Source: a virus (taxonomy: Duplodnaviria > Heunggongvirae > Uroviricota > Caudoviricetes). From it: 37,059 nucleotides of DNA. Below the pieces are notes generated by a model, which ran no database searches, was not told where the DNA came from, and worked only from the letters and a program-made list of their open reading frames with translations. Shown here piece by piece: positions 25,842-30,408 of this stretch. Every line of letters starts with the position of its first letter. Position 1 is the first letter of the stretch. Location: IMG/VR virus record IMGVR_UViG_2657245588_000006; one strand, 5' to 3'. The translations under genes were made by a program, and so were the position numbers.

Positions 25842-26335
25842 TAAGCCCCCACGTAATTCCCTGACAGATACCACTCTTCACCCGATGCAGCGCGCTTGCT
25901 GCTTTTCCGTAAACACCGCTCACGACGCGCAAGAAAATTGTTTCGCTCTTGCTGGGAGTGGCTTTCACGGAATGCCGCCATCCACACCGTTGCAGCACGA
26001 CGGTATAAGCCCCTGGACTCCAGTTCTTCCGCCTGGCGGGTCAGGCATAAAATCACCCGGGGATCGTTAGTGCCGACATAGAAATTGCGCACAGATCTGG
26101 TTTCTCGAACTGGTTGTGGTTCCGGTTCCTGCGCTCTCTCAGTCAGGCGCGGAAAATGTCTGCGTGTATCTCCTTCACAACGGTGAGCCACACGCCCACT
26201 CTGACGTAACTTGCTTGCAGACTGCAGAACGCGCTGCCGTGAGTAACCTGCAAAAGCATCCGTAATGTCTCCGGAAGTACACCCCGGATGGGCTTCAATG
26301 AATTTCTGAACGTCATTCAAAAGACTCATGATCAC
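25841..26335 (-). CDS. Hypothetical protein with N-terminal wHTH-like and C-terminal PerC-like region
   Basis: 164-aa ORF, ATGA-coupled to the O-like gene; C-terminal LTRQAEELESRGLYRRAATVWMAAFRESH resembles PerC/Pch-family activators as I remember them. Confidence 0.4.
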   Translation of the reverse strand: MIMSLLNDVQKFIEAHPGCTSGDITDAFAGYSRQRVLQSASKLRQSGRVAHRCEGDTRRHFPRLTERAQEPEPQPVRETRSVRNFYVGTNDPRVILCLTRQAEELESRGLYRRAATVWMAAFRESHSQQERNNFLARRERCLRKSSKRAASGEEWYLSGNYVGA

Positions 26336-27273
26336 CCCCTGAATCCTGCCGGGATCTGGCTGTAGTCCACGTTGTCGTAACTGGATTTGAAGTACGGGTC
26401 TTCGCGTTTTTCGGTGTACGTGCTGACGGACGGCGATAAGCGCAGGGAAAGCTCATCCCATTTTTCCCGCAACTTCGACGGGCTGAGCACGTTACGGCAC
26501 CAGAACGGATCGCGGCTGACGCGGCTGTACATCTCGCAGATTTGTTTGTGAGTACGACCATCCTGCACGCACATCAGGCGAATTTCGTTTGCCCAGGCTG
26601 TCCAGTTCGGTTCTTTGGGACGAACCACCTCGCCGTCACATTCGGCAGCCTGCTCGTACAGGGCGATGATTTTTTTCCAGAGCCACTGTGCGCAGGTCAA
26701 ATCATCCTGCGTTCCCCACTGGCGCTTTTTAGGGCTGAATACAACCGCATCAGGATGGCGAGTTAAAAACTCTTGTTCAGCCGTCTGCGTGTCCGGTTGC
26801 GAAGCGTCCGGACGAGAAGTTTTTTTATCTGACGGATCATGTTTTGATTTTACTGACGGATCCCCGCCAGATTCTGACGGGTGAAAACCCGCTTTTTTGC
26901 CAGATTTCGACGCATCAAATTTTGACTGGTCAGATTTTGATGCGTCAGATTTTGACGGGTCAGAATCTGACAGTTGAGAAAATGCCGCTGCCTGAAGCTT
27001 CGCAACGTTAAGCTGATAAACATTCGACGCATTGCGGTTACCCTGGCGACGCGCCTTACGCGTTAACCAGCCTTCTGCTTCCAGCCGTGCGATAGCCGTT
27101 CTGACGGTGCTCATCCCCGCGCCAATCTGGCGGGCAATGGTTTCAATTGATGGCCAGCACACACCTTCGTCATTACTGAAATCAGCCAGGCGGGCCATAA
27201 TTGCCACGCTGGATAACTTCATGCCTGACGCAGCGCAACCATCCCATACATAGCCGGTTAATTTAGTGCTCAT
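26332..27273 (-). CDS. Replication initiator, lambda-O-like replisome organizer
   Basis: 313-aa ORF; N-terminal HTH-like region, a central pentapeptide-repeat linker encoded by the iterons, and a C-terminal domain; sits downstream of the cro/CII-like genes. Confidence 0.65.
   Translation of the reverse strand: MSTKLTGYVWDGCAASGMKLSSVAIMARLADFSNDEGVCWPSIETIARQIGAGMSTVRTAIARLEAEGWLTRKARRQGNRNASNVYQLNVAKLQAAAFSQLSDSDPSKSDASKSDQSKFDASKSGKKAGFHPSESGGDPSVKSKHDPSDKKTSRPDASQPDTQTAEQEFLTRHPDAVVFSPKKRQWGTQDDLTCAQWLWKKIIALYEQAAECDGEVVRPKEPNWTAWANEIRLMCVQDGRTHKQICEMYSRVSRDPFWCRNVLSPSKLREKWDELSLRLSPSVSTYTEKREDPYFKSSYDNVDYSQIPAGFRG
26826..26974. repeat. ori: Iteron array (candidate replication origin) inside the O-like gene
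   Basis: Five tandem 15-bp units of consensus TCAGATTTTGACGGG at 26900..26974 plus three degenerate copies at 26826..26882, with an adjacent AT-richer stretch at about 26814..26860. Confidence 0.6.
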
Positions 27274-27621: not shown

Positions 27622-28232
27622 GCGTTAGTTTCTCCACAACCAGAAGCAATCGACGCCACGACGCCCGGAGCTGCACACTCGCGGGCGTCATTACTTTCTG
27701 AAATGCAAAAAATTTTGTAGACAAGTGCTGCATGCTCCTGCAGCTTCGAAATTGAGAGATACAGCTCGTCGTTAATTGCTGTCTTCTCATGCGGTTCCAC
27801 TACACCGTCTTCGATTGCTGAACGAATCTGTTTTGAATAACTGCCGATCTGTTCAATGACTTCCAGCAGACGCTGGTTAATATCGGCGTTGTCCACATCC
27901 TCGACGTCAGGAAGAGACACAAAGACGCCATTTGCAGACTGCGCCACAGCATCAGCAATGAAGTGAGTTCCACCAGCACGTTGCAAAATCATTGCCCATC
28001 CCAGCGGGAAAATCTGATCGCCATCAGCACGAAGGCGGTTAAATAATGCGTTCTCTGTTACATCCAGCCAGTCAGCTGCTTCAGCGTAACCACCCGGCAA
28101 CTTTGCGATAGTTTTTCTGACAGCTTTCACGTACCACTCAGGCTGTTTTTCTACTTTCCAGTGATGCTTACCCACGGTTAGCCTCATCGTTCTGTGGTTT
28201 CTGTTAATCGATTTATCCATTAGATTTTTCAT
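27618..28232 (-). CDS. CII-like / YdaT-family regulatory protein (tentative)
   Basis: Second gene after the cro-like gene; track ORF starts inside the cro-like gene, so the start is placed at the ATG at 28232 (ATG at 28220 is an alternative). Confidence 0.45.
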
Positions 28233-28413
28233 AAAGCTCAGGTTTAAATGGCAACCGTCCGCAAGTTCTATATGCAGCTTCTGCTGCACGTCCTTTTGGA
28301 ATTAACTGGCCCGGACGGTTTCGCCACTGATAAACGGCTTCAGTTGTTATGCCGAAAAAAGCAGCAACTTTCTCAATACTGCCGAAGTAGCTTTCGATAT
28401 CGTCAGTTGTCAT
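28213..28413 (-). CDS. cro: Cro-like HTH repressor
   Basis: 66-aa ORF with HTH (GITTEAVYQWRNRPGQ); GGAGG RBS; divergent from cI. Confidence 0.8.
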   Translation of the reverse strand: MTTDDIESYFGSIEKVAAFFGITTEAVYQWRNRPGQLIPKGRAAEAAYRTCGRLPFKPELYEKSNG

Positions 28414-28424
28414 ACGCCCTCCAA

Positions 28425-28489
28425 ACTAAGTTTTATTAGATGCTAATTACAAATCTATCTTTGGTCAATAAAAACTAAGATTACTTAGC
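28425..28489. promoter_or_regulatory. Right operator region with divergent promoters (pR-like on the minus strand; pRM-like unresolved)
   Basis: Two ACTAAG-N5-TTAG sites at 28425..28439 and 28474..28488; minus-strand -35 TTGACC (28463..28468) and -10 TAGCAT (28440..28445) with a 17-nt spacer, overlapped by the first site. Confidence 0.5.
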
Positions 28490-28510
28490 AATTCAAGAAA
28501 TGGTGCTCCT

Positions 28511-29137
28511 ATGGAAACGGTTGGTCAGCGTATAAAAGCTCTGAGAAGAGTTACCAGAACGTCCCAGAAAGAATTGGGTAAATTTTGTGGAGTAAGCGAC
28601 GTTGCTGTGGGGTACTGGGAGAAAGACATCAATACCCCTGGTGGGGAGGCACTTTCGAAATTAGCGAAGTTCTTCAATACGTCAATAGATTACATTCTTT
28701 ATGGTGCTGAGTTTGAAGGCAAACTCGTCACAAACATGCGCAGAGTTCCTGTAATATCGTGGGTTCAGGCTGGGCAGTTTACTGAGTGCAGGGCAGCAGA
28801 AGTGTTTAGTGAAGTGGACAAGTGGGTAGATACATCATTAAAGATTGGTGATAACTCATTTGCATTAGAGGTTAAAGGTGACTCCATGACTAACCCTAAT
28901 GGCCTCCCAACAATACCAGAAGGCGCAACAGTGATTGTAGATCCAGATGCAGAACCTCGTCATGGAAAAATAGTCATCGCTCGACTTGATGGAACAAACG
29001 AAGCTACAGTAAAAAAATTAGTCATCGATGGCCCTCAAAAGTTTTTAGTGCCATTAAATCCTCGGTATCCCAACATCCCTATCAATGGTAATTGCCTTAT
29101 CATTGGTGTAGTCAAAGGAGTTCAATACGAACTCTAA
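28511..29137 (+). CDS. cI: Prophage repressor, cI-type (HTH_XRE + S24 LexA-like autopeptidase)
   Basis: 208-aa ORF; N-terminal HTH, C-terminal GDSM Ser motif; divergent from the cro-like gene. Confidence 0.85.
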   Translation: METVGQRIKALRRVTRTSQKELGKFCGVSDVAVGYWEKDINTPGGEALSKLAKFFNTSIDYILYGAEFEGKLVTNMRRVPVISWVQAGQFTECRAAEVFSEVDKWVDTSLKIGDNSFALEVKGDSMTNPNGLPTIPEGATVIVDPDAEPRHGKIVIARLDGTNEATVKKLVIDGPQKFLVPLNPRYPNIPINGNCLIIGVVKGVQYEL

Positions 29138-29152
29138 GACCTCTCTTCTCTA

Positions 29153-29219
29153 ACTAAGGCACCGAACTAAGAAAAGTTTGGTGTTTTCTCTTGCCATAAT
29201 AACTAAGTTAAGTTAGATT
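29153..29219 (+). promoter_or_regulatory. Operator-like repeats and candidate repressor-controlled promoter after cI
   Basis: ACTAAG at 29153, 29166 and 29203; ACTAAG-N5-TTAG site at 29203..29217; -35 TTGCCA (29191..29196), 17-nt spacer, -10 TAGATT (29214..29219). Confidence 0.4.
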
Positions 29220-29321
29220 TTATGTCAAAGATAACGAACAGGCAGGACGCCCACGAAGTAGCCGCCGGTGGCGTATGAATGACCGGATGATTCGTTAAAT
29301 ACTATGTGTAAGAGAGCGCAA

Positions 29322-29524
29322 ATGAACCGTTATTTCACATGCTCGTTTTGTGGCGCAAACGAGCTGCAGGCAAAAAAATCATCGCCAAAGGCGGAAAAGA
29401 TGAAGTTGCTATCTGCTCTGAGTGCGTAGTCTTGTGTGTCGGAGCATTAATCAATATCAGCACAACTATTCAGTTCACACCAAATGAGAATGCGCCTTTA
29501 GATGCGCGGAAATCTGGAGGTTAA
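29322..29524 (+). pseudogene. ClpX-type C4 zinc-ribbon small protein, split by a -1 frameshift in an A7 tract (29372..29378)
   Basis: Frame A (ATG 29322) encodes MNRYFTCSFCGANELQAKK; frame B continues IIAKGGKDEVAICSECVVLCVGALIN to the stop at 29524; joined they give C7-x2-C10-x21-C32-x2-C35. Confidence 0.5.
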
Positions 29525-29532
29525 AGAACAAA

Positions 29533-29808
29533 ATGAAAGTCCAGATTTTAAACAATAGTGGTGAAGTCGTTTGGTCATACGACATAGCCGCTCCTGTAGA
29601 TCAGAGCGGCGATAGCTGGACCAATGGGAAACATCAGATTATGGCTGGAGTTGTATTCTCTTTACACCGTGCTTTGGAACAGGCTGAAGTATTTCCATCA
29701 GACCCTGAATGGAAATGGCCTTTTTCTATTTGTCCAAATTCGGAGAGCACATTTCAGAAAATTGGTCAGAAAGTCGCACTCGAAGAGCATCAGCCAACTG
29801 TTTTCTGA
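29533..29808 (+). CDS. Hypothetical protein (91 aa)
   Basis: ATG 8 nt after the zinc-ribbon stop; GGAGG 12 nt upstream; 3' end overlaps a convergent minus-strand ORF. Confidence 0.45.
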   Translation: MKVQILNNSGEVVWSYDIAAPVDQSGDSWTNGKHQIMAGVVFSLHRALEQAEVFPSDPEWKWPFSICPNSESTFQKIGQKVALEEHQPTVF

Positions 29809-29971
29809 TTTTTTCAGGTAACTCGTCGGCATCGCAGAAACAACAACGCTCGATCATGTTGAAAGCCGATTCGTAGAACTGTTTCTGCTGAGTGTCGCTG
29901 AGACAGGAAAAGAGCGACGTTACGATGATTTTATTAATTGCATTATCAAGTTCTTTTTCATCAAAAGTCAT
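29726..29971 (-). CDS. Hypothetical Cys-containing protein (81 aa), opposite to the cI operon
   Basis: AAGGA RBS 7 nt upstream of the ATG; contains CCFC; overlaps the 3' end of the 29533..29808 ORF by 83 nt. Confidence 0.4.
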   Translation of the reverse strand: MTFDEKELDNAINKIIVTSLFSCLSDTQQKQFYESAFNMIERCCFCDADELPEKIRKQLADALRVRLSDQFSEMCSPNLDK

Positions 29972-30209
29972 TTGATTTTCCTTTTATGTATACGGGCTTA
30001 AAAGGATACCACCGAGCCTGAAGTGGTGAAAAGACAGGCACATAACAGCTAAGTATTTTCAACCAGAGAGAATCCTTAGCGTTGTGGTGAATGCGGCTCA
30101 GCGCACGCGGGTTAAGGTTGAGGCTGACAGTCGACCTTCTGTGGATACCCACCCGTCTGGTGTGCAACCTTCGCCAGGCACCGGGAGGCACCCGGCACCA
30201 CAACTTTAT

Positions 30210-30271
30210 GCTGTGTGTAGTCTTGGCGGTACCAGTTTGTACCCTTGCTTCCGGCTGGTACCGCTCTTTTT
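30210..30271 (+). ncRNA. DicF-like small RNA candidate with intrinsic terminator
   Basis: CUUGGCGGUACCAGUUUGUACCC resembles my recollection of the DicF core UUUGGCGGUAUCAGUUUUACUCC; stem GGCGGTACCAG (30226..30236) / CTGGTACCGC (30255..30264) followed by TCTTTTT. The 5' end is not defined. Confidence 0.4.
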
Positions 30272-30408
30272 ACAAAACAGAGAAGAGCATCACCGGACGA
30301 CGGGCTCATAACCCAATCCATCCGGGCGGCTGCCACCGCAGGTGTTCTTCTCTGTTTTGTGGAGAAACCAACCGACCTTGCAGGGTCGATATGATGAGGA
30401 GCAGCAAA

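What the first reader, a model, noticed from the sequence alone, without database searches (positions are those of the whole stretch)
28425..29219. Shared ACTAAG-N5-TTAG operator motif on both sides of cI
The cro-cI intergenic region has two 15-bp sites (28425..28439, 28474..28488); the region just downstream of cI has a third (29203..29217) plus extra ACTAAG half-sites at 29153 and 29166, each overlapping a plausible promoter. Two further CTAAG/CTTAG motifs occur near 30045 and 30075. This defines a candidate immunity specificity and suggests the early-left operon starts immediately after cI, with no rexAB-type genes between.
Basis: seen in the sequence. Interest (0 to 1): 0.35.

Follow-up and report, generated by a model that had tools for sequence, protein, structure and literature searches.

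The report
P22-type prophage repressor operators, new specificity
The repeated ACTAAG…TTAG motif is real and marks the binding sites (operators) of this E. coli prophage's repressor on both sides of its gene, arranged exactly as in the classic phage P22 switch but with one base of the recognition sequence changed, so it is an ordinary, well-understood kind of genetic switch with its own immunity specificity.

Summary
The symmetric unit is the 18-bp site AA-CTAAG-N4-CTTAG-TT.

The window is an SfV/mEp460/CPS-53-like E. coli prophage. Its cI (28511-29137) is 47% identical to P22 c2, and its Cro belongs to the P22_Cro family. Site positions match P22's annotated immC:
- OR1 sits just downstream of the PR -10.
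- A weak OR2 lies in the PR spacer.
- OR3 carries a TAAGAT hexamer, the PRM -10 in P22.
- OL1 lies in the PL spacer, 54 nt after the cI stop.
- A degenerate OL2 lies 36 bp upstream, inside the cI terminator hairpin.

In 22 related loci (63-96% cI identity, Escherichia to Proteus) the half-sites stay fixed while spacers and flanks vary. Heteroimmune SfV and P22 have none.

The ACTAAG at 29153 is not conserved. The CTAAG/CTTAG pair at 30049/30075 is also present in SfV, so it is unrelated to immunity.

Verdict: a correct but ordinary finding, a new immunity specificity (CTAAG versus P22's TTAAG) in a known kind of switch. Binding itself is inferred, not shown.

The parts
28213..28413 (-). cro (66 aa), the divergent lytic repressor gene
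   Evidence: Pfam P22_Cro E=4e-11. 30% identical to P22 Cro. Homologues at 61-100% identity accompany cI in 17 of the related loci.
28424..28441 (.). OR1: AA-CTAAG-TTTT-ATTAG-AT. It abuts and overlaps by 2 nt the PR -10, covering the predicted PR start site.
   Evidence: Scores 23.5 with a PWM built from relatives only; the best of 20 shuffles scored 15.3. Half-sites are invariant and the spacer varies across 18 sequences. Same position as P22's annotated OR1.
28440..28468 (-). PR promoter: -35 TTGACC (28468-28463), 17-nt spacer, -10 TAGCAT (28445-28440)
   Evidence: Promoter scan. TTGA of the -35 and TA..AT of the -10 are invariant in alignment A1. Equivalent to P22's annotated early-right promoter.
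28448..28465 (.). Candidate weak OR2, core CAAAT-CTAT-CTTTG (28450-28463), in the PR spacer and -35
   Evidence: Centre is 24 bp from OR1 and 25 bp from OR3; P22 has 23 and 25. Relatives have better versions in the same register: mEp460 right half CTTAG, Rahnella CTAAT-CTTT-ATTAG, Yersinia pekkanenii left half CTAAG. On its own it is weak: PWM score 4.1, rank 8 in the window. Support comes from position and homology only.
28473..28490 (.). OR3: AA-CTAAG-ATTA-CTTAG-CA, a perfect 5+4+5 palindrome next to cI
   Evidence: PWM score 22.2. CTAAGAT and TTAG are invariant in 18 sequences.
28476..28481 (+). TAAGAT, the inferred -10 of the maintenance promoter PRM
   Evidence: The same hexamer, in the left half of OR3, ends the annotated 'transcription of C2 gene in lysogen' promoter of P22. 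It is invariant in A1, including the first two spacer bases. No consensus -35 was found. Inferred, not shown.
28511..29137 (+). cI repressor (208 aa): HTH domain plus S24 self-cleaving domain
   Evidence: Pfam HTH_3 and Peptidase_S24. 47% identical to P22 c2 over 205 aa, E=5e-66. The N-terminal domain's closest solved structures are P22 c2 (1ADR, 2R1J, 3JXB; E~5e-10) and the C-terminal domain's is lambda cI. Ala87-Gly88, Ser125 and Lys168 align with the cleavage site and catalytic dyad.
29153..29158 (+). Isolated ACTAAG half-site, probably not functional
   Evidence: Present in the window. It reads ACCAAA in mEp460 and varies in other relatives. It has no right half.
29160..29189 (+). cI intrinsic terminator: stem CACCGAAC/GTTTGGTG, 8-nt loop, then TTTTCT
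   Evidence: MFE -15.1 kcal/mol, z=-3.2. 97.9% of cells are paired in 12 sequences, against 22-40% when the partner is slid. One pair shows compensatory change (CG to UA) and several show GU transitions.
29165..29182 (.). Candidate OL2: AA-CTAAG-AAAA-GTTTG-GT, embedded in the terminator hairpin, 36 bp upstream of OL1
   Evidence: PWM score 14.2, the fourth best of about 37,000 positions (next is 5.6), but within the range of shuffle maxima. CTAA(G) and GTTTG are invariant while the 4-bp spacer changes (AAAA, TTTA, TAAA) and the stem covaries. Yersinia, Providencia and Proteus relatives carry a full site in the equivalent place upstream of the -35. P22 OL1-OL2 spacing is 35 bp.
29191..29219 (+). 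PL promoter: TTGCCA, 17-nt spacer, TAGATT
   Evidence: Promoter scan. TTG and TAGATT are invariant in A2. Same layout as P22 PL: TTGACC, 5 nt, then the operator.
29201..29218 (.). OL1: AA-CTAAG-TTAA-GTTAG-AT, in the PL spacer and -10
   Evidence: Best PWM score in the window, 25.8. Invariant in 12 aligned relatives.
29237..29266 (+). Left boundary of the immunity module: the conserved PL leader AACAGGCAGGACGCCCACGAAGTAGCCGCC
   Evidence: Homology with heteroimmune SfV resumes exactly here, after a non-homologous cro-cI-OL/PL block. Also present in mEp460, Kluyvera, Kosakonia and Yersinia proxima loci.
29322..29524 (+). First gene of the PL operon: a ClpX-type zinc-finger ORF, frameshifted in this window
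   Evidence: Pfam zf-C4_ClpX and phrog_5259. The window has A7 where an intact E. coli copy has A8.

Best explanation
The motif copies are the operators of a P22 c2-type immunity switch. What the sequence shows: cI (HTH plus S24 domains) and a divergent P22-family cro flank a roughly 100-bp region. That region carries two strong 18-bp sites, AA-CTAAG-N4-CTTAG-TT (OR1 and OR3), and a weak central one (OR2), spaced 24 and 25 bp apart. OR1 and OR2 overlap PR, and OR3 overlaps a TAAGAT hexamer. Downstream of cI lie its terminator, then OL2 (degenerate, inside the terminator DNA), then PL with OL1 in its spacer. What is inferred from P22 and lambda: cI dimers put one helix-turn-helix into each CTAAG half-site, one helical turn apart. 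Occupancy of OR1/OR2 and OL1/OL2 blocks RNA polymerase at PR and PL and keeps the prophage silent. OR2-bound cI may stimulate PRM, and OR3 occupancy would shut it off. RecA-stimulated self-cleavage at Ala87-Gly88 removes repression. Cro then binds the same sites to turn off cI synthesis. The specificity differs from P22 at the outer base of the half-site (C instead of T). This goes with Asp30 in place of P22 Asn32 at the start of the recognition helix, so this prophage should be heteroimmune to P22, SfV and lambda.
For: Three exact sites against 0 expected, and none elsewhere in the window. A PWM built only from relatives ranks OL1, OR1, OR3 and OL2 as the top four positions in the window. cI is 47% identical to P22 c2, and its N-terminal domain's closest solved structures are P22 c2 with and without operator DNA. 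Cro is in Pfam P22_Cro. The P22 operator consensus is ATTTAAGATATCTTAAAT, with TTAAG half-sites separated by 4 bp (PMC5175364), which is the same geometry. Site spacing, PR, the PRM -10 and PL coincide with P22's annotated features. In 22 loci from Escherichia, Enterobacter, Kosakonia, Kluyvera, Serratia, Rahnella, Yersinia, Rouxiella, Providencia and Proteus (cI 63-96% identical), the sites sit about 85 and 36 bp before the cI ATG, and about 65 bp after the stop in 15 of the 22. Half-sites are invariant while spacers and flanks vary. A Klebsiella phage with a more distant cI that keeps the helix TDVTIGYW also has CTAAG-type sites. SfV shares the flanks but has a different cI and cro, and carries a different repeated motif (TGTACC...) at the same two places. 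Six loci (five Rouxiella-type, one Serratia) keep cI and the sites but have no Cro homologue, so the motif follows cI.
Against: There are no binding data of any kind; everything rests on sequence and homology. OR2 scores poorly by itself (4.1) and OL2's score (14.2) is within the range of shuffle maxima. The GTTTG half of OL2 is also a terminator stem arm, so its invariance has a second explanation. No consensus -35 was found for PRM, and cI starts about 24 nt after the predicted PRM start, unlike the near-leaderless P22 c2. Relative affinities of the sites, cooperativity and OL-OR looping cannot be read from sequence. The PWM core was selected by similarity to the consensus, so only the flanking positions and the window's ranking are independent.
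Confidence: 0.9

Rival explanations
1. The sites are bound mainly by Cro, or by another regulator such as the CII-like YmfL, and cI recognises something else in these regions.
For: Cro co-occurs with the sites in 17 related loci. In lambdoid phages Cro and cI share operators, so sequence alone cannot separate the two.
Against: Rouxiella-type loci and a Serratia locus keep cI and the CTAAG sites but have no Cro homologue. No other repeated palindrome is conserved in OR or OL. The cI recognition helix is near-invariant wherever the motif is present, and it changes together with the motif in more distant relatives.
Confidence: 0.04
2. The conserved blocks are promoter and terminator elements (TAGAT-type -10 hexamers, a terminator stem) kept by transcription constraints and shared ancestry, not protein-binding sites.
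For: TTAGAT of OL1 is the PL -10. TAAGAT of OR3 is a likely PRM -10. GTTTG of OL2 is a stem arm. The OL1 spacer is invariant in the 12 aligned loci, which could reflect recent common descent.
Against: The left halves (CTAAG) of OR1, OR3 and OL1 have no promoter role, yet they are invariant from Escherichia to Proteus while neighbouring bases vary. The sites are inverted repeats with a fixed 4-bp gap, the geometry of the homologous P22 operator. In OL2, CTAA lies in the loop of the hairpin, where a terminator imposes no sequence constraint.
Confidence: 0.04
3. The ACTAAG copies are same-orientation direct repeats bound as iterons, like the P2 C repressor, and the TTAG partners are incidental.
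For: All five ACTAAG copies in 28425-29207 are on the + strand, and the two at 29153 and 29166 are 13 bp apart.
Against: The TTAG partner is invariant in relatives, whereas the leading A and the 29153 copy are not. The repressor is homologous to a dimeric palindrome binder.
Confidence: 0.02

Closest known systems
Salmonella phage P22 immC region (c2 repressor, Cro, OR1-3, OL1-3, PR/PRM/PL)
   Same: The repressor is 47% identical and Cro belongs to the same Pfam family. The operator is 18 bp with 5-bp half-sites separated by 4 bp. Three OR sites sit about 24 bp apart. OR1 is just downstream of the PR -10, OR2 lies in the PR spacer and -35, and TAAGAT in OR3 is the PRM -10. PL with OL1 in its spacer lies directly after the repressor gene, OL2 is about 35 bp upstream, and no rex genes intervene.
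   Different: The half-site is CTAAG rather than TTAAG. The recognition helix is SDVAVGYW rather than SNVAISQW. cI starts about 22 nt beyond OR3 instead of abutting it. A clear intrinsic terminator hosting OL2 lies between cI and PL. No third OL site is evident. No boxA/boxB nutL or gene 24 (N-like) homologue was seen after PL, and the rest of the genome is SfV/CPS-53-like.
Shigella phage SfV / E. coli e14-type immunity region
   Same: Same genome type, same flanking genes (ymfL/cII-like, orf33, yfdP-yfdQ-yfdR) and same layout cro - OR - cI - terminator - OL/PL. The record annotates a 'putative operator region' between cro and cI.
   Different: cI (224 aa) and cro are non-homologous at the DNA level, and the repeated motif is TGTACC-type. 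There is no CTAAG-N4-CTTAG site. The two are therefore heteroimmune.
Phages mEp460_4F5, vB_EcoS-569R4, vB_EcoM-689R6, Kati and LLS
   Same: They carry the same immunity module (77-100% DNA identity) with the same sites.
   Different: Their records annotate only 'repressor' or hypothetical proteins and no operator features. No paper describing these operators turned up in the library searches.
C.Csp231I controller protein C-box (restriction-modification regulation)
   Same: Identical half-sites, CTAAG and CTTAG, read by a dimeric Xre-type HTH protein (PMC9638921).
   Different: The spacer is 5 bp, not 4. The protein family and biological setting differ, and there are no R-M genes here. This is a look-alike motif, not a relative.
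Lambda cI/OR/OL switch
   Same: The C-terminal domain is homologous (E~1e-27 to lambda cI structures). The logic is the same: tripartite OR, divergent PR and PRM, and PL/OL.
   Different: The N-terminal domain and operators are unrelated to lambda's 17-bp sites, and no rexAB lies between cI and PL.

Membership tests
P22 c2-type (lambdoid CI-type) immunity switch | Repressor with an N-terminal Xre-type HTH domain and a C-terminal S24 (LexA-like) self-cleavage domain | tested here: met
   Pfam HTH_3 (E=1e-9) and Peptidase_S24 (E=9e-28). Ala87-Gly88, Ser125 and Lys168 align with the lambda and P22 cleavage site and dyad.
P22 c2-type (lambdoid CI-type) immunity switch | Sequence homology of the repressor to P22 c2 along its full length | tested here: met
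   BLASTP gives 47% identity over 205 aa, E=5e-66. PDB hits 1ADR, 2R1J and 3JXB match the N-terminal domain.
P22 c2-type (lambdoid CI-type) immunity switch | A divergently transcribed cro gene of the P22 Cro family | tested here: met
   Pfam P22_Cro E=4e-11. 30% identity to P22 Cro.
P22 c2-type (lambdoid CI-type) immunity switch | Operators that are imperfect palindromes with 5-bp conserved half-sites separated by 4 bp | tested here: met
   CTAAG-N4-(C/A/G)TTAG occurs three times in the window. P22 geometry is taken from PMC5175364 and the P22 sequence.
P22 c2-type (lambdoid CI-type) immunity switch | Three adjacent operators between cro and the repressor gene, overlapping PR and PRM | tested here: inconclusive
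   OR1 and OR3 are clear and spaced 49 bp apart. The central site is only a 7-of-10 match with PWM score 4.1. It does sit in register with P22 OR2, and it is stronger in some relatives.
P22 c2-type (lambdoid CI-type) immunity switch | A second operator set overlapping an early-left promoter directly downstream of the repressor gene | tested here: met
   PL at 29191-29219 has OL1 in its spacer. OL2 lies 36 bp upstream.
P22 c2-type (lambdoid CI-type) immunity switch | Repressor and Cro physically bind these sites and repress PR and PL | not testable with these tools
   This needs EMSA or footprinting and reporter assays.
P22 immunity specificity (homoimmune with P22) | TTAAG half-sites and the recognition helix SNVAISQW | tested here: not met
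   Half-sites here are CTAAG and the helix is SDVAVGYW. P22 has no CTAAG-N4-CTTAG site.
C-protein C-box (C.Csp231I type) | CTAAG-n5-CTTAG upstream of a controller gene of a restriction-modification system | tested here: not met
   The spacer here is 4 bp, and the neighbouring genes are cI and cro.
Lambda-type cI-rexA-rexB operon | rexAB-like genes co-transcribed downstream of cI, before OL/PL | tested here: not met
   Only 54 nt, containing a terminator, separate the cI stop from the PL -35.

The most novel reading that the evidence does not exclude
Natural variation in this repressor family appears to follow a one-residue, one-base code. The residue at the start of the recognition helix (P22 Asn32, Asp30 here) sets the outermost base of the 5-bp half-site. 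In the loci gathered here, Asp goes with C (CTAAG); Asn, His or Tyr with T (TTAAG); Arg with G (GTAAG or GTAGG); and Gln with A (ATAAG, ATAAC, ATGAG). A Gly variant in Proteus shows mixed C and A. If the rule holds, immunity groups of c2-type prophages could be predicted from protein sequence alone, and new orthogonal repressor-operator pairs could be designed by a single substitution. From memory, it echoes the 434 repressor Gln28-adenine 1 contact, so it would extend a known principle rather than overturn one.
Probability: 0.45. Interest if true: 0.4.

Novelty: new member of a known kind. Interest (0 to 1): 0.22.

Why it matters
It gives a concrete operator consensus (AACTAAG-N4-CTTAGTT) and promoter map for an immunity group found in more than a hundred complete E. 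coli genomes and, in diverged form, across the Enterobacterales. That lets one predict superinfection immunity between these prophages, annotate their PR, PRM and PL, and design reporter or induction experiments. As biology it is a textbook P22/lambda-type switch with one base of specificity changed, so it teaches little that is new. The side observation about a residue-to-base rule across the family may be useful for engineering orthogonal repressors.

Tried and rejected
1. The CTAAG (30049) and CTTAG (30075) pair as extra operators: rejected. They are 21 bp apart, get no PWM score, and are present unchanged in heteroimmune SfV.

2. The ACTAAG at 29153 as an OL3: rejected as unsupported. It has no right half, it would overlap OL2 (centres 13 bp apart), and it is lost in mEp460.

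3. Other repressor targets elsewhere in the prophage: the PWM scan found nothing above 5.6 outside OR and OL.

4. A known RNA element in the window, including the PL leader: Rfam gave no hit at gathering thresholds, and the leader 29226-29325 folds no better than shuffles (z=-0.6).

5. A nutL-like boxA/boxB after PL, as in P22: none seen by eye on the + strand. This was not searched formally.

6. Literature searches for this operator (CTAAG with operator, repressor and prophage; mEp460; yfdQ with CPS-53) returned only the unrelated C.Csp231I C-box and papers with no operator data.

7. A consensus PRM could not be found by the scan. It was assigned only by homology to P22.

8. Structure prediction and the large protein-database searches were not run. 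47% identity to P22 c2 already settles the fold.
Full report
**Observation**

The pattern ACTAAG-N5-TTAG occurs exactly three times in the 37,059-bp window: 28425-28439, 28474-28488 and 29202-29216. No dinucleotide-preserving shuffle gave any match.

Written as a palindrome, CTAAG-N4-CTTAG with at most one mismatch finds the same three places and no others. The chance expectation is 0.43, and 0 of 100 shuffles reached three.

ACTAAG as a hexamer is not over-represented in the window as a whole (6 found, 9.7 expected). However, five of the six copies lie between 28425 and 29207, including the half-sites at 29153 and 29166.

**Context**

The window is a lambdoid prophage of E. coli. The 2.15-kb stretch around the finding is 100% identical to the chromosomes of many E. 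coli strains and 95-99% identical to phages vB_EcoS-569R4, vB_EcoM-689R6, mEp460_4F5 and Kati. The flanks, but not the cro-cI block, match Shigella phage SfV.

Genes around the finding:
- **cI**, 28511-29137 (+), 208 aa, with HTH_3 and Peptidase_S24 domains.
- **cro**, 28213-28413 (-), 66 aa, in Pfam P22_Cro.
- Beyond cro, a CII-like ymfL gene and a replication gene.
- Beyond cI on the + strand, a ClpX-type zinc-finger ORF, small ORFs, then yfdP, yfdQ, yfdR and an integrase.

**Relationship to P22**

The repressor is 47% identical to P22 c2 over 205 residues (E=5e-66). Its N-terminal domain's closest solved structures are the P22 c2 DNA-binding domain, free and on operator DNA (1ADR, 2R1J, 3JXB). 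Its C-terminal domain matches lambda cI, with the Ala-Gly cleavage site and Ser/Lys dyad aligned. Cro is 30% identical to P22 Cro.

P22 c2 binds 18-bp operators with consensus ATTTAAGATATCTTAAAT. The TTAAG half-sites are separated by an uncontacted 4-bp centre, and Val33 of the recognition helix packs against the TTAA methyl groups (PMC5175364). The window's sites have the same geometry with one base changed:
- AA-CTAAG-TTTT-ATTAG-AT
- AA-CTAAG-ATTA-CTTAG-CA
- AA-CTAAG-TTAA-GTTAG-AT

The valine is kept (Val31). The residue before it is Asp30 instead of Asn32, and Gln37 is replaced by Tyr35.

**Architecture**

A consensus promoter scan of 28150-30400 returns four hits. Two of them lie in the intergenic regions:
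- **PR**, on the - strand: TTGACC (28468-28463), 17-nt spacer, TAGCAT (28445-28440).
- **PL**, on the + strand: TTGCCA (29191-29196), 17-nt spacer, TAGATT (29214-29219).

I compared these with the annotated P22 record:

| Feature | P22 | Window |
|---|---|---|
| OR1-OR2-OR3 centre spacing | 23 and 25 bp | 24 and 25 bp (28432.5, 28456.5, 28481.5), if 28450-28463 (CAAAT-CTAT-CTTTG) is OR2 |
| OR1 position | overlaps the last 2 nt of the PR -10 | same |
| OR2 position | in the PR spacer and -35 | same |
| PRM -10 | TAAGAT in the left half of OR3 | TAAGAT at 28476-28481 |
| PL layout | TTGACC-ATTTA-ATTAAGAAGTCTTAAAT | TTGCCA-TAATA-ACTAAGTTAAGTTAGAT |
| OL1-OL2 spacing | 35 bp | 36 bp (CTAAG-AAAA-GTTTG at 29167-29180) |

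In both phages PL follows the repressor gene directly, with no rex-type genes.

In the window, the 54 nt between the cI stop and the PL -35 hold an intrinsic terminator: stem CACCGAAC/GTTTGGTG, followed by TTTTCT, -15.1 kcal/mol, z=-3.2. OL2 lies inside this hairpin DNA.

A scan of one genome per species returned 79 loci. I analysed 20 of them whose cI is 63-90% identical and has the helix GVSDV(A/S/T)VGYW (Gly for Asp in the two Proteus loci). With phages mEp460 and LLS, that makes 22 related loci.

- **OR3 position.** 21 of the 22 have a CTAAG-N4-CTTAG site (at most 1 mismatch) 35-48 bp before the cI ATG.
- **OR1 position.** 19 of the 22 have one 82-97 bp before the ATG.
- **OL1 position.** 15 of the 22 have one 55-78 bp after the stop.
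- SfV and P22 have none.

In the 18-sequence OR alignment, the invariant columns are the half-sites (TAA...TTAGAT, TAAGAT...TTAG), TCAA (the complement of TTGA of the PR -35) and TA..AT of the PR -10. The 4-bp spacers and the flanks vary.

In the 12-sequence OL alignment, OL1, TTG of the -35 and TAGATT are invariant. In OL2, CTAA(G) and GTTTG are invariant while the spacer changes (AAAA, TTTA, TAAA). The terminator stem shows compensatory and G-U changes: 97.9% of cells are paired, against 22-40% when the partner is slid.

The central OR2 is weak everywhere but keeps xAAx-N4-xTTxG. It is better in some relatives: the right half is CTTAG in mEp460, Rahnella has CTAAT-CTTT-ATTAG, and the left half is CTAAG in Yersinia pekkanenii.

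A PWM made only from the relatives' sites gives these scores in the window:

| Site | PWM score |
|---|---|
| OL1 | 25.8 |
| OR1 | 23.5 |
| OR3 | 22.2 |
| OL2 | 14.2 |
| Next best position anywhere | 5.6 |
| OR2 | 4.1 |
| Maxima of 20 shuffles | mean 10.6, highest 15.3 |

So three sites are individually significant. OL2 and OR2 rest on position and homology.

**The motif follows the repressor**

- SfV shares the DNA on both sides but has a different cI and cro. It carries a different repeat (TGTACC-type) in its cro-cI region and in its PL spacer. Homology with the window resumes at AACAGGCAGGACGCCC (window 29237), right after PL. OL/PL therefore belongs to the exchangeable immunity module.
- Five Rouxiella-type loci and one Serratia locus keep cI and the CTAAG sites but have no Cro homologue.
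- A Klebsiella phage with a more distant repressor (helix TDVTIGYW) and a 65%-identical Cro also has CTAAG/CTAAA-N4-TTTAG sites in both places.

**Sub-claims that fail**

- The ACTAAG at 29153 reads ACCAAA in mEp460 and varies elsewhere. It has no right half, and it would clash with OL2.
- The 30049/30075 pair has the wrong spacing and is present unchanged in heteroimmune SfV.
- The extra half-sites overlap the terminator, not promoters.

**Mechanism**

Shown by sequence and homology: the parts and their arrangement.

Inferred from P22 and lambda:
- cI dimers on OR1/OR2 and OL1/OL2 repress PR and PL.
- OR2-bound cI may activate PRM, and OR3 would give negative autoregulation.
- RecA-stimulated self-cleavage induces the prophage.
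- Cro uses the same sites.
- Long-range OL-OR cooperation is described for P22 in PMC5977221. It is possible here (the two operator sets are about 0.74 kb apart) but untested.

**Comparison and novelty**

This is a member of the P22 c2-type switch family with its own specificity, so it should be heteroimmune to P22. The phage records that carry the same module annotate no operators, and the library searches found no paper describing them. The identical half-sites of the C.Csp231I C-box (CTAAG-n5-CTTAG, PMC9638921) are a coincidence of motif, with a different spacing and protein family.

I rate this as a new member of a known kind, of low to moderate interest.

**A by-product**

Across the more distant c2-type loci, the residue aligned with P22 Asn32 tracks the outer base of the half-site:

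| Residue at the P22 Asn32 position | Half-site |
|---|---|
| Asp | CTAAG |
| Asn, His, Tyr | TTAAG |
| Arg | GTAAG, GTAGG |
| Gln | ATAAG, ATAAC, ATGAG |

This is correlative and not corrected for phylogeny. From memory, it is in line with the 434 repressor Gln28-A1 contact.

Noticed in passing
window 29322-29524 (A-run 29372-29378): The first gene after PL is a 67-aa ClpX-type C4 zinc-finger protein, and it is frameshifted here. The window has A7 where an otherwise identical E. coli G4/9 copy has A8. The strains identical to the window carry no annotation for this gene.
   Followed up: yes
window 29533-29808 (+) and 29726-29971 (-): Two convergent ORFs overlap by 83 nt. Both match PHROG families strongly (phrog_3195 at 1e-62; phrog_3311 at 1e-55). 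RefSeq annotates the - strand ORF in one genome and the + strand ORF in another. The - strand gene would face PL transcription head-on.
   Followed up: partly
window 29237-29266: The conserved PL-leader sequence AACAGGCAGGACGCCCACGAAGTAGCC marks the exact point where homology to heteroimmune SfV resumes. It resembles the start of the P22 early-left transcript (ATCAGCAGGACGCTGGTAGCC). It may be a recombination joint between immunity modules. It has no special RNA fold (z=-0.6) and no Rfam hit.
   Followed up: partly
window 26865-26980, inside the replication gene 26332-27273 (-): Five to six iteron-like repeats of about 15 bp (CAGATTTTGACGnGT), spaced 15 bp apart. This is probably the replication origin lying inside the initiator gene, as in lambda O.
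   Followed up: partly
window 30008-30275: An ORF-poor stretch before yfdP carries two terminator-like hairpins. One is on the + strand (GCGGTACCAG...CTGGTACCGC followed by a T-run, about 30226-30275). The other is on the - strand (30027-30008). RefSeq calls a frameshifted hypothetical gene here. A terminator inside the early-left unit implies either antitermination or separate transcripts. No N-like gene or nut site was recognised.
   Followed up: no
loci L006-L084 and L085 (P22): Across c2-type repressors, the residue aligned with P22 Asn32 correlates with the outer base of the 5-bp operator half-site: Asp with C, Asn/His/Tyr with T, Arg with G and Gln with A. Proteus loci with Gly show mixed C and A.
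   Followed up: partly
L014, L015, L017, L018, L028 (Rouxiella-type) and L011 (Serratia aquatilis): These loci keep the cI and the CTAAG operators but have no Cro homologue, and no OL was detected after cI at the threshold used. L018 and L028 have a second pair of sites, 49 bp apart, 440-570 bp upstream of cI. This suggests a rearranged switch with a different divergent gene.
   Followed up: no
L005 2283-2930 (Klebsiella phage vB_VIPKPNMC05): The repressor gene of this phage is annotated as a 134-aa fragment that ends at a stop inside the S24 domain. The remainder continues in another frame, and its cro (2188-1994, - strand) is not annotated. This may be a frameshift or a truncated repressor in a phage isolated as lytic.
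   Followed up: no
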